Shown: positions 43,729 to 45,799, counted from the first letter of the stretch. The stretch: 64,000 bases of DNA from Candidatus Babelota bacterium (GCA_003963225.1 RXKB01000001.1:105957-169956); one strand, 5' to 3'. The notes: generated from the sequence alone by a model not told the origin. Numbers and translations: made by a program.

Positions 43729-43815
43729 GGAAATGAAACCGGGCGAACAGATAGCCGGCGTGCTTTGGTATCAGTTTTGCAACAGATGAAGTAACGCACG
43801 ACTTTTACGTCCCGG
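43729..43815 (-). ncRNA. Y RNA-like small RNA, short form (Ys-3, most divergent)
   Basis: CCGGG-ACGUAAAA-GUCGUGCG ... UUCAUC ... GCACG ... CUGUUCG-CCCGG followed by UUUCAUUUCC. Confidence 0.5.
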
Positions 43816-43891
43816 AAAAATGTTGCGGAGAAAGAGTGACCGTGGGTGGTTTTCGTTTAAAAGACGATGAACCACGATCTATTACTTCCGC
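43816..43891 (-). ncRNA. Y RNA-like small RNA, short form (Ys-2)
   Basis: GCGGA-AGUAAUA-GAUCGUGG-UUCAUC ... CCACGGUC-ACUCUUUC-UCCGC followed by AACAUUUUU. Confidence 0.6.
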
Positions 43892-43971
43892 AAAAAGGAA
43901 ATGCCAGGCAGAACAGAGTGACAGTGGAGTTTCTTAAACGCAAGATGAACCACTATCGATTACTTACCTGG
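43892..43971 (-). ncRNA. Y RNA-like small RNA, short form (Ys-1)
   Basis: CCAGG-UAAGUAAUC-GAUAGUGG-UUCAUC ... CCACUGUC-ACUCUGUUCUG-CCUGG followed by CAUUUCCUUUUU. Confidence 0.6.
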
Positions 43972-44112
43972 AAAAAATGTGGGAGCGAACAGACGTCAAG
44001 AGAGCTTTTACTCTACCGCTGAGCTACTCTGGCGTGAGTGCCAGAGGTTGGATTCGAACCAACGACCTTTGTGTTTAATGACAACGATGAACTCCTGACA
44101 ATTACGTCTCCC
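43972..44112 (-). ncRNA. Y RNA-like RNA, long form with a permuted tRNA-like domain (Yl-4)
   Basis: The module is GGGAG-ACGUAAUU-GUCAGGAG / CUCUUGAC-GUCUGUUCG-CUCCC. The interior holds a T arm (GUUGG-UUCGAAU-CCAAC), a closed acceptor (CUCUGGC/GCCAGAG) and a D arm (UAGCUCAGCGGUAGAG). Confidence 0.7.
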
Positions 44113-44210
44113 AAAAGTGTCTGGTTTGAGGGCAATCACGGAAATCCTAGCACGCCCAGTCAAGTCGTGCGCCTCTTACATGATTGCCCTTTTACGGGAG
44201 GTGGAACCAG
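44113..44210 (-). ncRNA. Y RNA-like small RNA, variant form (Ys-0)
   Basis: CUGGUU ... CGUAAAA-GGGCAAUCA ... UGAUUGCCC-UCA-AACCAG followed by ACACUUUU. It lacks UUCAUC. Confidence 0.45.
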
Positions 44211-44552
44211 TACCACCTATTCAACACCCCTCACAGGCGTTGTGTTCTGAGAAGATGGTCCCCCGTGAATCCGTTAGGACCCTTACCCTTGGGGTATTAA
44301 TCCTCAGGTTTTACAGTCACGGTGTTACCGAATGCGCGTTGCGGGACGTCTCCCATACTACGCATCCCATTCACACCATTTACGGGAGATTAGAAGCGAC
44401 TAAACCGGAGCGCATTGTATCGGAATCGCTGCCCGTTCGAGTATCCGGTCTGTGGCCGGCGCCGAAGCGCTAAGTCGCTAAATTGGTTGCAGCTAGCTGC
44501 TTCGAAATTGTTTTGTATTGTCTGCGGAGGTAGGTTCAGCTACACTTGGTGA
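44211..44552 (-). ncRNA. unclassified hairpin-rich non-coding segment
   Basis: Contains a GCGC-UUCG-GCGC tetraloop hairpin, an AGCGAC/GUCGCU long-range pair and two CUCCCGUAAA motifs. There is no convincing ORF. Confidence 0.3.
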
Positions 44553-45140
44553 ATGCCCACTTTACAAGCACAACGGAGCGGCGGCGCAGTCATGGCAGCT
44601 CGCCAGAGAAACGCAGCGCTAGCCAAATACTATGCAAATCCAAATCTGTGCGAACGCTGCCTTCAACCTATTCAGGTGCTACCTGACCAAAAGCTCCGCG
44701 CAGTCAGGGTCAAGCGCTTTTGCTCCCGTTCCTGTGCAGCTTCAAAAAACAACAAGACACGGAAGGCTCGGGTAAAAAAGTATCATCCGTGCGTAAGTTG
44801 CAGTGCACTCGCGGCAACAAGAAAAGGTAAGCGTTGTATTACCTGTCAGTCCGTCTGGAACGAGCAACGCAAGGCCGAACAATTAGTAAACAAGACCAAG
44901 AGCGAAACAAGCTATCGACAAATCTGTCTCCACGCACGGTACTCGGTTAGAAACAGAGAACAGAAATGTCAGAAGTGTGGGTATTCTTACCATGTAGAGT
45001 GCTGCCATCTACAGGCCGTGTCCACCTTTCTGCCGACAGCGAAAATCGCCGAGATCAATGCACCGACAAACTTGCGATTACTGTGCCCGAACTGCCACTG
45101 GGAACACGACCATCCAAACAAGACAATGGTGCAGGGATAG
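44553..45140 (+). CDS. HNH endonuclease with N-terminal Cys-rich repeats
   Basis: CQKCG ... HVECCHLQ ... NLRLLCPNCHWEHDH. It lies antisense to the RNA island. Confidence 0.75.
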   Translation: MPTLQAQRSGGAVMAARQRNAALAKYYANPNLCERCLQPIQVLPDQKLRAVRVKRFCSRSCAASKNNKTRKARVKKYHPCVSCSALAATRKGKRCITCQSVWNEQRKAEQLVNKTKSETSYRQICLHARYSVRNREQKCQKCGYSYHVECCHLQAVSTFLPTAKIAEINAPTNLRLLCPNCHWEHDHPNKTMVQG

Positions 45141-45205
45141 GAGTCGAACCTATTATCTCGCAGCTTATGAGGCTGGAATGATTATTATCCGTTTCACTCC
45201 CCTGC
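45127..45205 (-). tRNA. tRNA-like gene with a CAU anticodon (Met or Ile2), encoded CCA and an atypical D arm
   Basis: Acceptor GCAGGGG/UCCCUGC, anticodon loop CUCAUAA, T loop UUCGACU and a 3' ACCA. The D stem is only 3 bp, and the anticodon stem has a C-C mismatch. Confidence 0.55.
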
Positions 45206-45363
45206 AAATTCAGAAAGCGCGGAAGTTTTTGTTCAAGGCTTATACGTTGCTCGAACTCCTAGAACCCGCCGTTTTGCGTTCGGCGGGCTGGTCTCCCCAC
45301 TTCCAAGGCTACCTTATGCTTGTTACAGCTGCGCCCATTGAGGGCCCGATGTAAGGTTTGGAG

Positions 45364-45515
45364 ACAAAAATCCAAGGTGATTCAAGTGTACGACAACATG
45401 TTGATGGGCGGCTGCTCTACCGCTGAGCTACAACCCGCCAGAGGCGAATATGGCAGGATTCGAACCTGCGACCAGCCGCGGGATTTTGATGAACGTCATA
45501 CGATTACATCCTTGG
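45364..45515 (-). ncRNA. Y RNA-like RNA, long form with a permuted tRNA-like domain (Yl-3)
   Basis: The module is CCAAGG-AUGUAAUC-GUAUGACG / UGUCGUAC-ACUUGAAUCA-CCUUGG. The interior holds GCGGC-UGGUC-GCAGG-UUCGAAU-CCUGC, the acceptor AUUCGCC-UCU-GGCGGGU, the D arm UAGCUCAGCGGUAGAGC and GCCGC. Confidence 0.7.
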
Positions 45516-45657
45516 AAAAGGAATCGGGAAGAACAGACAGAAGACATTGTTTTAGGTGCTTTAACCGCTAAGCTACCCCGGCGTTGAAGCCGAGGGTGGG
45601 ATTCGAACCCACGACACCCGCTTAATAGGCGATGAACGTCTTCCAATTACTTTCCCG
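45516..45657 (-). ncRNA. Y RNA-like RNA, long form with a permuted tRNA-like domain (Yl-2)
   Basis: The module is CGGGAA-AGUAAUU-GGAAGACG / UGUCUUCU-GUCUGUUC-UUCCCG. The interior holds a T arm (GUGGG-UUCGAAU-CCCAC), the acceptor CCUCGGC-UUCAAC-GCCGGGG and a D arm (GCUUAGCGGUUAAAGC). Confidence 0.7.
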
Positions 45658-45799
45658 AAAAACAAAAGAGGGAGAACAGGCGAGCCCCATTTTTTTAGCG
45701 TGCTGCCATTACACCACCGACCCGTCGAATGGGCCAGCCAGGATTCGAACCTGGACCTCTCGTTCCTATAACGATGAACGAGACTCAATTACTTCCCTC
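45658..45799 (-). ncRNA. Y RNA-like RNA, long form with a permuted tRNA-like domain (Yl-1)
   Basis: The module is GAGGGA-AGUAAUU-GAGUCUCG / UGGGGCUC-GCCUGUUC-UCCCUC. The interior holds a T arm (CCAGG-UUCGAAU-CCUGG) and the acceptor CUGGCCC-AUUCGAC-GGGUCGG. Confidence 0.7.

What the first reader, a model, noticed from the sequence alone, without database searches (positions are those of the whole stretch)
43729..45799. Eight tandem small RNAs with a covarying two-helix module beside the Ro60 gene (candidate phage Y RNA family)
Read on the minus strand, there are eight head-to-tail units: three at 45799-45364 and five at 44210-43729.

Each unit begins with helix 1 (5-6 bp), a conserved 5' internal loop containing GUAAU, helix 2 (8 bp) and then UUCAUC. 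Each unit ends with the helix-2 partner, a conserved 3' bulge containing CUGUUC, the helix-1 partner and a U-tract.

The helix sequences differ completely between copies but remain complementary:
- 43972-44112: GGGAG-ACGUAAUU-GUCAGGAG // CUCUUGAC-GUCUGUUCG-CUCCC
- 45658-45799: GAGGGA-AGUAAUU-GAGUCUCG // UGGGGCUC-GCCUGUUC-UCCCUC
- 45516-45657: CGGGAA-AGUAAUU-GGAAGACG // UGUCUUCU-GUCUGUUC-UUCCCG
- 45364-45515: CCAAGG-AUGUAAUC-GUAUGACG // UGUCGUAC-ACUUGAAUCA-CCUUGG
- 43892-43971: CCAGG-UAAGUAAUC-GAUAGUGG // CCACUGUC-ACUCUGUUCUG-CCUGG
- 43816-43891: GCGGA-AGUAAUA-GAUCGUGG // CCACGGUC-ACUCUUUC-UCCGC

Conserved loops, compensatory helices and U-tracts point to RNA genes rather than protein. Y RNAs, the ligands of Ro60/Rsr, are built around a terminal helix formed by the two RNA ends and interrupted by conserved bulges. 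The rsr orthologue is the next gene downstream on the same strand. Eight paralogues in one phage locus, in both short and long forms, would be an unusually large set.
Basis: partly seen in the sequence, partly recalled or inferred. Interest (0 to 1): 0.85.

Follow-up and report, generated by a model that had tools for sequence, protein, structure and literature searches.

The report
Phage array of Y-RNA-like genes
A jumbo phage carries, just upstream of its Ro60/Rsr gene, a row of eight small structured RNA genes: four tRNA mimics of the bacterial YrlA type and four short hairpins. This is a far larger set than any reported for a phage or bacterium in the papers read here, and the likely protein-binding motif is altered.

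Summary
Seven of the eight reported units share one architecture. It runs: helix 1, an invariant bulged A, two more pairs, a UAAY loop, helix 2, GUUCAUC, an apical domain, then the return strands and a U-rich spacer.

- **Correction to the unit count.** The eighth "unit" (44210-44113) is the last hairpin of a different conserved RNA. A missed unit lies at 43596-43525, 26 nt before the rsr start codon.
- **Structure of the units.** Four units (A, B, C, E) carry a circularly permuted tRNA-like domain: T-arm, 7-bp closed acceptor-like stem, D-arm. This is the hallmark of bacterial YrlA Y RNAs. Four units are short.
- **Conservation.** Ten related metagenomic loci have the same array beside rsr. 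Covariation is strong: 92-97% of cells paired, against 60-68% when shuffled and 36-51% when slid.
- **Family placement.** Rfam YrlA matches three units below threshold (28-37 bits, threshold 69). The Caulobacter phage CcrColossus locus, which the literature reports as carrying Y RNA-like RNAs, scores only 42 bits. None of 49 units has the canonical GNCGAA motif.

Verdict: a divergent, expanded Y RNA/YrlA subfamily in an undescribed jumbo-phage clade. Binding to Rsr is inferred, not shown.

The parts
45885..45912 (-). Candidate sigma-70-type promoter of the RNA array (TTGACT, 16 nt spacer, CATAAT)
   Evidence: Best promoter-like site in the region, 10 of 12 matches. The -35 element TTGAC(T/A) is aligned in 6 related loci about 85-160 nt upstream of unit A. 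This is a consensus match only; function is inferred.
45658..45799 (-). Unit A, long (YrlA-like). Helix 1 GAGGGA/UCCCUC, 5' loop AGUAAUU, helix 2 GAGUCUCG/UGGGGCUC. T-arm 45754-45738, 7-bp acceptor-like stem 45737-45717, D-arm, then U-rich spacer.
   Evidence: z -2.04. Orthologues in 8 genomes with compensatory changes.
45516..45657 (-). Unit B, long (YrlA-like). T-arm 45612-45596, 7-bp acceptor-like stem 45595-45576 with loop UUCAAC.
   Evidence: Rfam YrlA 34.8 bits, E 3.4e-5, full-length alignment. Family model R1 35.2 bits. (z -3.19).
45364..45515 (-). Unit C, long (YrlA-like). T-arm 45469-45453, acceptor-like stem closed by a 3-nt loop.
   Evidence: Rfam YrlA 36.7 bits, E 9.6e-6, full-length alignment. 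(z -2.72). The L123 orthologue scores 46.3 bits.
45129..45205 (-). Degenerate tRNA-Met(CAU)-like gene with an encoded CCA, inside the array
   Evidence: Rfam tRNA 21.9 bits, below the threshold of 29. ARAGORN does not call it. At this position six relatives have a canonical tRNA-Met: four were scored by Rfam at 61-66 bits, and ARAGORN called tRNA-Met in all six.
44553..45140 (+). 195-aa ORF with an HNH-type Cys/His motif on the opposite strand; an insertion that splits the array
   Evidence: Translation shows CQKC...HVECCH...CPNCH. No HMM hit in Pfam, PHROGs or NCBIfam. Shared only with L131, at 91% nucleotide identity over window 45805-44256.
44113..44262 (-). X1: a conserved three-hairpin RNA of unknown class. 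Not a member of the Y-like family.
   Evidence: Conserved in 7 loci, with an invariant CUGGUUCC loop and an invariant 3' AACCAG. No Rfam match. Not matched by R1 with filters off.
43972..44112 (-). Unit E, long (YrlA-like). T-arm 44063-44047, 7-bp acceptor-like stem 44046-44027.
   Evidence: Rfam YrlA 27.8 bits over the tRNA-like core. (z -3.16).
43892..43971 (-). Unit F, short form
   Evidence: R1 72.8 bits. z -4.42..
43816..43891 (-). Unit G, short form
   Evidence: R1 80.1 bits. z -3.08..
43729..43815 (-). Unit H, divergent short form (GUAAAAG and ACUUCAUC)
   Evidence: R1 26 bits, E 0.005. Orthologues in 7 other genomes at 24-42 bits. z -2.03.
43597..43709 (-). X2: a conserved 107-nt three-way-junction RNA (43709-43603) followed by a U tract. 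Unknown class; may also act as a terminator.
   Evidence: 11-bp closing stem in which 4 pairs changed on both sides; the interior sequence is nearly invariant across 5 genomes. Terminator-like site at 43622-43603. No Rfam match.
43525..43596 (-).
   Evidence: R1 37.7 bits, E 1e-5. Orthologues in L123, L124, L126 and L130 end 22-28 nt before the start codon. z -3.26.
41814..43499 (-). rsr: the Ro60/Rsr orthologue (561 aa)
   Evidence: Pfam TROVE 6.6e-18, 65.6 bits against a cutoff of 23; vWA_Ro60 24.8 bits, below its cutoff of 27.7. PDB: phage phiLo Ro60 9KOP/9L5Y at E 7e-15 over residues 61-543, and D. radiodurans Rsr 2NVO at 1e-5.
33688..35760 (-). CCA-adding enzyme / tRNA nucleotidyltransferase homologue. 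Context gene, conserved downstream of rsr in all related loci that extend that far.
   Evidence: phrog_2244 at 6.9e-58. NCBIfam CCA addition/repair at 7e-43. PolyA_pol domain at the same relative position in 8 loci.

Best explanation
The region is a non-coding RNA operon upstream of the phage's Ro60/Rsr gene. It encodes eight paralogous Y RNA-like molecules.

**Shown from sequence and comparison**
- Every unit pairs its 5' and 3' ends into a stem. The stem is interrupted by a conserved module: helix 1 (5-7 bp); an invariant bulged A; a covarying N-N' pair plus an invariant G-C pair; an asymmetric internal loop (5' UAAYN, 3' pyrimidine-rich ...UU); helix 2 (8 bp); and GUUCAUC.
- In units A, B, C and E the apical part is a circularly permuted tRNA-like domain: T-arm, closed 7-bp acceptor-like stem, then D-arm after a short linker (two nucleotides in A, B and E), as in bacterial YrlA.
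- In units F, G, H and I the apical part is a small hairpin (YrlB-like short forms).

**Inferred**
- The array is transcribed from the conserved sigma-70-like promoter at 45912-45885, together with a tRNA-Met(-like) gene and two other structured RNAs.
- The transcript is cut in the U-rich spacers into RNAs of about 70-140 nt.
- The phage Rsr ring binds the conserved bulged-helix module, chiefly its 5' strand, as Ro60 does in animals and Deinococcus.
- The variable apical domains either tether Rsr to different partners (PNPase-type exoribonucleases, or tRNA-binding enzymes for the four tRNA mimics) or gate access to its cavity.
- Several paralogues would then give one Rsr several specificities during infection.
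For: - **Architecture and chance:**
- **Short units (19 from 9 genomes):** RNAalifold recovers the same two helices without guidance. Cells paired 91.9% against 68.1% shuffled and 36-51% slid; 12 of 15 pairs changed on both sides.
- **Long units (30):** five helices, 96.6% paired against 67.9% shuffled, 25 of 29 pairs changed on both sides. The pair next to the bulged A occurs as AU 14, UA 8, CG 7.
- **All model hits (44 units, 10 loci):** 92.3% paired against 59.5% shuffled.
- **Model specificity:** the best score was 21 bits in 818 kb of IMG/VR DNA and in 308 kb of GTDB DNA, all pre-selected to contain the 5' motif.
- **tRNA-like domain:**
- **YrlA as best Rfam family:**. The CcrColossus comparison scored 42.3 bits.
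- **Placement:** every hit lies on the rsr strand, upstream of rsr.
- **The protein:**. Its closest solved relative, phiLo Ro60, binds two phage Y-like RNAs and forms a complex with PNPase (PMC12135203).
- **Precedent for processing:** Y RNAs lie within 4 kb of rsr on the same strand, and YrlA and YrlB are processed from one precursor in M. smegmatis (PMC4201824).
- **Not protein-coding:** the overlapping ORF 45632-46150 shows substitutions 16/16/16 by codon position and frameshifting indels relative to L123.
Against: - There is no expression, end-mapping or binding evidence of any kind.
- The motif proposed for Rsr recognition in bacterial Y RNAs (GNCGAAN0-1G, or CGAA in phiLo) is absent from all 49 units examined. 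Recognition by this Rsr is therefore argued from position and conservation, not from a known code.
- All units score below Rfam's YrlA gathering threshold.
- The short units have no feature that ties them to Rsr apart from sharing the stem module with the long ones.
- The host is unknown, so promoter and processing assumptions may not apply.
- The conserved module could be the binding site of another protein encoded nearby.
Confidence: 0.78

Rival explanations
1. The units are tRNA-derived RNAs whose partner is not Rsr. The four long units would be permuted tRNA mimics or precursors that are opened by RNase P and CCA-tailed by the phage's own nucleotidyltransferase. They might act as decoys or substrates for host tRNA-targeting defences or tRNA enzymes. 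The conserved two-helix module would then be a processing platform or the binding site of another protein. Linkage to rsr would reflect a shared RNA-repair or RNA-metabolism neighbourhood.
For: - The T-arm is followed immediately by a 7-bp acceptor-like stem, and in units A, B and E the D-arm follows two nucleotides later, exactly as in tRNA.
- A 7-bp stem made M. smegmatis YrlA a substrate for RNase P and for CCA addition (PMC4201824; bioRxiv 10.1101/312249).
- A genuine tRNA-Met sits inside the array in six relatives.
- A CCA-adding enzyme gene is conserved a few genes downstream in all loci that extend that far.
- The canonical Rsr motif is absent.
Against: - There is no anticodon arm. ARAGORN and the Rfam tRNA model do not accept the units in the window.
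- The short units share the same stem module but have no tRNA-like part.
- The most conserved and covarying part is the terminal bulged stem, which is where Ro60 binds in every characterised Y RNA (PMC4201824).
- Being an RNase P substrate does not exclude being a Y RNA: M. smegmatis YrlA is both.
Confidence: 0.12
2. The units act mainly in cis, as a structured leader that regulates rsr expression through attenuation or autoregulatory Rsr-binding sites, and not as stable trans-acting RNAs.
For: - Unit I ends 22-28 nt before the rsr start codon in five genomes.
- A terminator-like hairpin with a U tract (the 3' end of X2) lies just upstream of unit I.
- All units are on the rsr strand.
Against: - The array extends 2.3 kb upstream and includes a tRNA gene in the relatives.
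- Eight copies with four conserved tRNA-like types are hard to explain as a leader.
- Known Y RNAs are processed from rsr-linked precursors into stable RNAs (PMC4201824).
- This reading could hold for unit I alone without contradicting the main explanation.
Confidence: 0.06
3. The region is a set of DNA-level repeats, or decayed tandem tRNA genes, with no RNA function. The apparent YrlA matches would arise from the T-arm of one tRNA remnant lying next to the D-arm of the next.
For: Chen et al. warn that dimeric tRNAs can score as false YrlA matches (PMC4201824). A Rfam tRNA sub-threshold hit bridges units B and C.
Against: - The strands between the T-arm and the D-arm pair with each other, and all 6 pairs have changed on both sides. 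This is not expected for the 3' end of one tRNA and the 5' end of the next.
- The terminal helices covary across 10 loci while the loops stay invariant.
- No anticodon arms remain.
- Four orthologous types are maintained in genomes whose Rsr proteins are only 54-86% identical.
Confidence: 0.02

Closest known systems
Bacterial and phage YrlA Y RNAs (Rfam RF02553; Chen et al. 2014, PMC4201824; structure of S. Typhimurium YrlA, bioRxiv 10.1101/312249)
   Same: - Encoded within 4 kb of rsr on the same strand.
- The 5' and 3' ends pair into a stem interrupted by an internal loop.
- The apical domain is a circularly permuted tRNA mimic (variable hairpin, T-arm, closed acceptor-like stem, D-arm) with the conserved T-loop GGUUCGAAUCC and the D-loop GG.
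- Full-length alignment to the Rfam model for units B and C.
- The 7-bp acceptor-like stem resembles M. smegmatis YrlA.
   Different: - Scores are 28-37 bits against a threshold of 69.
- The 5'-strand motif GNCGAAN0-1G is replaced by A-N-G-UAAY (0 of 49 units have the canonical motif).
- GUUCAUC replaces the YUAY element.
- There are four conserved paralogous types per genome. Chen et al. report about 1.3 per genome.
YrlB, Yrn2 and other second Y RNAs of S. Typhimurium, M. smegmatis and D. radiodurans (PMC4201824)
   Same: Shorter hairpin RNAs encoded next to YrlA and rsr. They share the presumed Rsr-binding stem and lack a full tRNA-like domain. In M. smegmatis they are co-processed from one precursor.
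   Different: YrlB is defined operationally, by co-purification with Rsr, and has no sequence model, so membership cannot be tested. Here there are 4-6 short forms per genome, with their own conserved elements (GUUCAUC, AAACC, UUUCU).
Thermus phage phiLo Ro60 with Yrl1 and Yrl2 (PMC12135203; PDB 9KOP, 9L5Y)
   Same: A phage-encoded Ro60 with Y-like RNAs encoded upstream of its gene. The phiLo protein is the closest solved structure to the window's Rsr (E 7e-15). Each RNA has a 5'-3' stem flanking an internal bulge.
   Different: phiLo has two RNAs, identified through a CGAA motif. Here there are eight, without CGAA, and four carry tRNA-like domains. No binding data exist for the window's system.
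Metazoan Y RNAs and nematode stem-bulge RNAs
   Same: A terminal stem with a conserved bulged helix as the Ro60 site, followed by a U-rich 3' tail. They occur as multi-copy paralogous families.
   Different: No detectable sequence or Rfam similarity. In animals the U tail is a Pol III terminator and La-binding site. In this array the U-rich stretches are spacers between units of one operon.
Phage tRNA gene clusters
   Same: Tandem, closely spaced small RNA genes with T- and D-arm sequences. A real tRNA-Met lies in the array in relatives. An HNH-type ORF is inserted among the RNA genes.
   Different: The units are not tRNAs. The arm order is permuted, the acceptor stem is closed, there is no anticodon arm, and both ARAGORN and the Rfam tRNA model reject them. 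ARAGORN does mis-call one orthologue as tRNA-Cys.

Membership tests
YrlA (Rfam RF02553) | Covariance-model score at or above the curated gathering threshold (69 bits) | tested here: not met
   36.7 bits (C), 34.8 bits (B) and 27.8 bits (E, partial); unit A has no hit. For comparison, the Caulobacter phage CcrColossus locus, a phage reported to carry Y RNA-like RNAs (PMC12135203), scores 42.3 bits. The threshold therefore excludes at least one other phage locus of this kind.
YrlA (Chen et al. 2014 criteria) | Encoded within about 4 kb of the Ro60/Rsr gene on the same strand | tested here: met
   All units lie 26-2300 nt upstream of rsr on the minus strand. The same holds in 10 related loci.
YrlA (Chen et al. 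2014 criteria) | tRNA-like domain in permuted order (variable hairpin, T-arm, closed acceptor-like stem, D-arm) with conserved T-loop and D-loop nucleotides | tested here: met
   Met for units A, B, C and E. T-loop UUCGAAU on a 5-bp stem, 7-bp acceptor-like stem, D-loop with GG. All three helices covary across 30 sequences. Not present in units F, G, H and I.
YrlA (Chen et al. 2014 criteria) | GNCGAAN0-1G motif near the 5' end (the proposed Rsr recognition element) | tested here: not met
   0 of 49 units from 9 genomes contain it. The conserved element is instead A-N-G-UAA(U/C/A).
Y RNA (functional definition) | Terminal stem formed by the 5' and 3' ends, containing a conserved bulged or internal-loop helix | tested here: met
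   Helix 1, bulged A, 2 bp, internal loop, helix 2. Supported by MFE folds, RNAalifold and covariation counts.
Y RNA (functional definition) | Physical association with Ro60/Rsr, and dependence on it for stability | not testable with these tools
   Needs RIP, EMSA or genetics.
Y RNA (functional definition) | Expressed as a discrete small RNA | not testable with these tools
   No transcriptome data are available. Only a conserved promoter-like site and U-rich spacers were seen.
tRNA (RF00005 / ARAGORN) | Canonical cloverleaf with an anticodon arm, scoring at or above 29 bits | tested here: not met
   ARAGORN finds no tRNA in the window. Rfam tRNA gives 17.7-23.6 bits, and only as chimeric alignments across units.
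Ro60/Rsr protein (for the neighbouring gene) | TROVE domain followed by a vWA domain; homology to solved Ro60 rings | tested here: met
   TROVE 65.6 bits against a cutoff of 23. vWA_Ro60 24.8 bits, just below its cutoff of 27.7. PDB 9KOP/9L5Y at E 7e-15 over residues 61-543, and 2NVO at 1e-5. The NCBIfam Rsr equivalog scores only 24 bits against a cutoff of 900, so the protein is a divergent member.

The most novel reading that the evidence does not exclude
The locus would be a phage-encoded, programmable Ro60 toolkit.

- One Rsr ring would be served by at least eight interchangeable adaptor RNAs that share a clade-specific recognition module (bulged A, G-C pair, UAAY loop).
- Four of them would mimic four distinct tRNAs. 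They may be opened by RNase P and CCA-tailed by the phage's own nucleotidyltransferase into split tRNA-like molecules.
- Unit I, in the rsr 5' UTR, would provide autoregulation.
- The two co-transcribed RNAs of unknown class (X1 and X2) would be further ligands or substrates.

Together these would redirect host RNA decay or counter a defence system. A precedent is the Ro60-like gp130 of phage Bas63, which counters the ppl defence system (bioRxiv 10.1101/2024.10.10.617714).
Probability: 0.15. Interest if true: 0.85.

Novelty: new variant of a known kind. Interest (0 to 1): 0.6.

Why it matters
Why cells keep several Y RNAs, and how Ro60 recognises them, are open questions. In bacteria, recognition has been inferred mainly from one short motif.

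- **Recognition.** This clade offers a natural experiment: about 50 sequenced paralogues and orthologues in which the helices vary freely while a different small core stays fixed (bulged A, G-C pair, UAAY, GUUCAUC). Together with a divergent Rsr, this is a ready data set for working out the protein-RNA recognition code and testing it by EMSA.
- **Why several Y RNAs.** Four tRNA-like types are kept distinct across genomes. This suggests that each recruits a different partner, which makes the "one Ro, many adaptors" idea testable.
- **Annotation.** These RNAs fall below Rfam's YrlA threshold and can be mis-called as tRNAs. A dedicated model would improve annotation of large phages.
- **Further RNAs.** Two more conserved structured RNAs in the same operon have no known family.

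Tried and rejected
1. **Rfam at curated thresholds.** Nothing in the whole window. Only the permissive search showed YrlA.
2. **GenBank phage DNA similarity.** No relative found.
3. **Searches for Rsr relatives by back-translated peptides.** IMG/VR returned only a 24%-identity hit. GTDB genomes and JGI metagenomes returned nothing. The clade is nonetheless present in IMG/VR, so these were failures of the exact-peptide method.
4. **Collection scan with the 14-base motif AGTAATNGN6GTTCATC.** It returned at least 120 IMG/VR loci. 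The 100 loci tested with the family model gave a best score of 21 bits.
5. **17-base pattern in GTDB genomes.** All 41 hits were chance, scoring 21 bits or less.
6. **Closest GenBank Rsr (634-kb uncultured phage, 38.6% identity) and a 432-kb IMG/VR contig.** No family-model hits and no YrlA. One GUAAU-containing hairpin upstream of rsr in L122 was seen by eye but scored only 12.6 bits.
7. **The 44210-44113 "unit" as a family member.** Rejected.
8. **Dimeric-tRNA artefact and permuted-tRNA-gene readings.** Considered and rejected, because the acceptor-like stem covaries and there is no anticodon arm.
9. **Protein-coding reading of ORF 45632-46150.** Rejected.
10. **Function of the conserved neighbours (305, 268, 263 and 576 aa).** No informative HMM hits beyond a weak nicotinamidase-like match and the PP2C phosphatase.
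11. **Reviews by Sim and Wolin and by Boccitto and Wolin.** Not held in the library. "Largest known set" therefore rests on Chen et al. 2014, on PMC12135203 and on my own comparison.

Full report
**1. The observation**

I read the minus strand of 46100-43400. Folding each unit alone gives the same picture:
- a 5-7 bp terminal helix;
- an asymmetric internal loop with GUAAY on the 5' side and a pyrimidine-rich stretch on the 3' side;
- an 8-bp second helix followed by GUUCAUC;
- an apical domain, the return strands, and an 8-12 nt U/C-rich spacer.

The fold z-scores run from -2.0 to -4.4.

The pattern HGTAATNGN6GTTCATC occurs six times exactly, all on the minus strand within the region. With two mismatches allowed there are 7 matches against 1.15 expected, and none of 100 shuffles reached 7.

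Within a unit, 100% (helix 1) and 98% (helix 2) of positions pair. Across units the figures are 52% and 51%. The arms themselves are only about 44% identical between units.

**2. Corrections to the unit list**

- **The unit at 44210-44113 is not a member.** It has no GUUCAUC and no CUGUUC, and a covariance model of the family does not find it even with filters off. Alignment with seven related loci shows it is the third hairpin of a larger conserved RNA, called X1 here (about 44262-44113). X1 has an invariant hairpin loop CUGGUUCC and an invariant 3' AACCAG.
- **The unit at 43815-43729 (H) is divergent but real.** It scores 26 bits and has orthologues in seven other genomes.
- **A unit was missed at 43596-43525 (I).** It scores 37.7 bits (E 1e-5) and ends 26 nt before the rsr start codon. 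Its orthologues end 22-28 nt before the start codon in four other genomes.

The count is therefore still eight: A, B, C, E (long) and F, G, H, I (short).

**3. What the long units contain**

In A, B, C and E the apical domain has four parts:
- a small variable hairpin;
- a T-arm (5 bp with loop UUCGAAU);
- a closed 7-bp acceptor-like stem, which in A, B and E follows the T-arm immediately;
- a D-arm with the GG of a tRNA D-loop, two nucleotides after the stem in A, B and E.

This is a circularly permuted tRNA without an anticodon arm. It is the defining architecture of bacterial YrlA Y RNAs (Chen et al. 2014, PMC4201824; bioRxiv 10.1101/312249).

Rfam agrees. At curated thresholds nothing in the window matches. 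In a permissive scan the best family for units C, B and E is YrlA (RF02553): 36.7, 34.8 and 27.8 bits, E 1e-5 to 4e-3, with full-length alignments for C and B. The threshold is 69 bits. However, the Caulobacter phage CcrColossus locus scores only 42.3 bits in the same test. PMC12135203 names CcrColossus among the phages reported to carry Y RNA-like RNAs. The threshold therefore excludes at least one other phage locus of this kind.

ARAGORN finds no tRNA in the window.

**4. The neighbouring gene and the genome**

ORF 41814-43499 (minus strand) has a TROVE domain: 65.6 bits against a cutoff of 23. Its closest solved structure is the Ro60 of Thermus phage phiLo (9KOP/9L5Y, E 7e-15 over residues 61-543), followed by Deinococcus Rsr. 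phiLo Ro60 was shown to bind two phage-encoded Y-like RNAs and to form a complex with PNPase (PMC12135203).

An identical protein is deposited as [quoted passage not shown] on a 226.5-kb contig. The evidence nevertheless points to a phage:
- the window encodes a portal homologue (Salmonella phage Arash portal, E 2e-45, 92% coverage);
- it encodes a protein with virion-structural domains;
- it encodes phage-type DNA polymerase, DnaB and RecA/UvsX-like genes;
- the contig of a relative is listed in IMG/VR.

I conclude that this is a jumbo phage placed in a bacterial bin. Relatives sit on contigs of 182-226 kb.

**5. Related loci**

Through Rsr homologues of 54-86% identity I fetched nine syntenic loci, and a tenth through a DNA pattern. 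All loci that extend far enough share this gene order: RecA, small genes, a 2-3 kb gene-poor stretch, rsr, three unknown genes, a PP2C phosphatase, a 575-aa protein, and a CCA-adding enzyme.

In every one, the gene-poor stretch holds the same kind of units on the rsr strand.

Where the array is complete in the closest relatives, the order matches the window: A, B, C, tRNA-Met, X1, E, F, G, H, X2, I, rsr. It is shown in full for L123; most elements are shared by L124, L126 and L129. Counting the long units listed and the family-model hits, I count roughly five to ten Y-like units per genome; L128 has the most.

The four long types keep their own D-arm and T-arm sequences across genomes. In L131 the E-type stem carries a short apical loop instead of the tRNA-like domain. 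Long and short forms therefore interconvert.

**6. Covariation**

| Set | Cells paired | Shuffled | Slid | Pairs changed on both sides |
|---|---|---|---|---|
| 19 short units, 9 genomes (plain MAFFT alignment) | 91.9% | 68.1% | 36-51% | 12 of 15 |
| 30 long units (five helices) | 96.6% | 67.9% | 42-50% | 25 of 29 |
| 44 model hits, 10 loci (alignment fitted to the model) | 92.3% | 59.5% | 36-50% | 14 of 15 |

For the short units, RNAalifold predicts the two helices without guidance, and no shuffle reached the observed values on any measure. For the long units, RNAalifold recovers helix 1, helix 2, the T-arm, the acceptor-like stem and the D-arm.

These alignments also refine the core. After helix 1 comes an invariant unpaired A. 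Next is a pair that covaries (AU 14, UA 8, CG 7), and then an invariant G-C pair. This G is the G of "GUAA", and it pairs with the C of "UUC". The conserved core is thus a bulged helix, as in the Ro-binding site of animal Y RNAs.

The family model is specific. In 818 kb of IMG/VR DNA and 308 kb of GTDB DNA, all pre-selected to contain the 5' motif, the best score was 21 bits.

**7. How it differs from known YrlA**

- None of 49 units has the GNCGAAN0-1G motif that Chen et al. proposed as the Rsr recognition element, and which was used (as CGAA) to find the phiLo RNAs. The conserved element is A-N-G-UAA(U/C/A): GUAAU 28 times, GUAAC 15, GUAAA 3.
- GUUCAUC is present in 46 of 49 units. It takes the place of the YUAY element.
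- More distant Rsr loci (42% identity) show further variants. L134 has YrlA-like units with GGAAUUGAU. L135 has a short unit with CAGUGAU, GUUCAUC and UUUUCU. The 5'-strand motif seems to change with the Rsr clade; I did not test this statistically.
- Copy number is the other difference. CcrColossus has one or two detectable copies. Three other Rsr-encoding phages had none within 5 kb at E < 0.01. Chen et al. list 355 YrlAs in 276 genomes.

**8. Likely mechanism**

Shown:
- the RNA-level structure;
- the tRNA-like domains;
- the linkage to rsr;
- a conserved sigma-70-like promoter element 85-160 nt upstream of unit A;
- the absence of coding signal in the overlapping ORF, which has substitutions 16/16/16 by codon position and frameshifting indels.

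Inferred from characterised systems (PMC4201824, PMC12135203, bioRxiv 10.1101/312249):
- the array is one transcription unit that is cut in the U-rich spacers;
- Rsr binds the bulged-helix core through its 5' strand;
- the apical domains tether Rsr to effectors or gate its cavity;
- several paralogues provide several specificities.

[quoted passage not shown] A CCA-adding enzyme gene is conserved nearby. This step is speculative.

Unit I, in the rsr 5' UTR, could be an autoregulatory site. This too is speculative.

**9. Rival explanations**

- **tRNA-derived RNAs with a partner other than Rsr.** This cannot be excluded. It does not explain why the short forms share the stem module, or why the terminal stem is the most constrained part.
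- **A purely cis-acting leader.** This fits only unit I.
- **A dimeric-tRNA artefact or DNA repeats.** This is contradicted by covariation in the acceptor-like stem and the terminal helices.

**10. Novelty and score**

Y RNAs next to phage Ro60 genes are known, in mycobacteriophages, CcrColossus, Bacillus phage G and phiLo (PMC4201824, PMC12135203). The kind is therefore not new.

New here:
- a divergent subfamily with a different conserved core;
- an array of eight, with four conserved tRNA-mimic types and four short forms;
- conservation across an undescribed jumbo-phage clade;
- two additional structured RNAs (X1, X2) in the same operon with no Rfam match.

I found no paper in the held library that describes such arrays.

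I rate it a new variant of a known kind, with interest 0.6. It is solid and useful for the Ro/Y RNA field, but it is an extension of known biology, not a new principle, and there is no experimental evidence yet.

Noticed in passing
window 44113-44262 (minus strand): X1, a conserved three-hairpin RNA of unknown class between the tRNA-like gene and unit E. The hairpin-2 loop CUGGUUCC and the 3' AACCAG are invariant in 7 loci and complementary, so a pseudoknot is possible. No Rfam match. In IMG/VR it is found only in this clade.
   Followed up: partly
window 43597-43709 (minus strand): X2, a 107-nt three-way-junction RNA with an 11-bp closing stem (4 pairs changed on both sides) and a nearly invariant interior, followed by a U tract. 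It is more conserved in sequence than the Y-like units. No Rfam match. It may double as a terminator between the array and unit I/rsr.
   Followed up: partly
window 43525-43596 (minus strand): A ninth structured element: the Y-like unit I, which ends 26 nt before the rsr ATG. The spacing is 22-28 nt in four other genomes, which suggests an Rsr-binding site in the 5' UTR of its own mRNA. No Shine-Dalgarno sequence is visible before the ATG.
   Followed up: partly
window 45129-45205 (minus strand); L123 6026-6102, L124 5811-5884, L128 5883-5959, L129 6057-6133, L130 6249-6322, L132 6382-6458: A canonical tRNA-Met(CAU) follows unit C in six relatives. Four were scored by Rfam at 61-66 bits, and ARAGORN called all six. 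The window's copy is degenerate: 21.9 bits, an odd D-arm, a 6/7-bp acceptor stem and an encoded CCA. L128 has three more tRNAs there.
   Followed up: partly
window 44553-45140 (plus strand); window 45805-44256 against L131 5176-6715: An ORF with an HNH-type motif (CQKC...HVECCH...CPNCH) lies inside the RNA array on the opposite strand. This 1.55-kb stretch is 91% identical to L131, although the two Rsr proteins are only 56% identical. This points to mosaicism or homing of a mobile endonuclease.
   Followed up: partly
L123 6249-6320; L128 6158-6248: ARAGORN calls a "tRNA-Cys" on the E-type Y-like unit of L123, and a tRNA with an undetermined anticodon in L128. YrlA-like units can be mis-annotated as tRNAs in phage genomes.
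   Followed up: no
L131 6719-6797: The E-type stem (GGGAGACGUAAC...GUCAGAAG) occurs here without the tRNA-like domain. Long and short forms therefore interconvert by gain or loss of the apical domain.
   Followed up: no
window 33688-41679 (minus strand): The gene set downstream of rsr is conserved in all relatives: three unknown proteins (305, 268 and 263 aa; the 268-aa one weakly nicotinamidase-like), a PP2C phosphatase (37496-38398), a 576-aa protein (faint kinase hit in L132) and a 690-aa CCA-adding enzyme homologue.
   Followed up: partly
whole window: The source record is labelled as a Candidatus Dependentiae MAG. However, the window has a phage portal homologue (17426-19162) and virion-structural domains (21934-25431), and a relative's contig is in IMG/VR. 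This is probably a mis-binned jumbo phage of about 226 kb from a clade with almost no PHROG or Pfam matches.
   Followed up: partly
window 45632-46150 (plus strand): A 172-aa ATG ORF antisense to unit A and the promoter is spurious. Substitutions relative to L123 fall 16/16/16 by codon position, with many frameshifting indels.
   Followed up: yes
L134 3570-3850; L135 5901-5972: Loci with Rsr at 42% identity carry Y-like units with other 5'-loop variants (GGAAUUGAU in L134, CAGUGAU in L135). L135 keeps GUUCAUC and UUUUCU. In L135 the unit lies downstream of rsr, inside a large tRNA cluster.
   Followed up: partly
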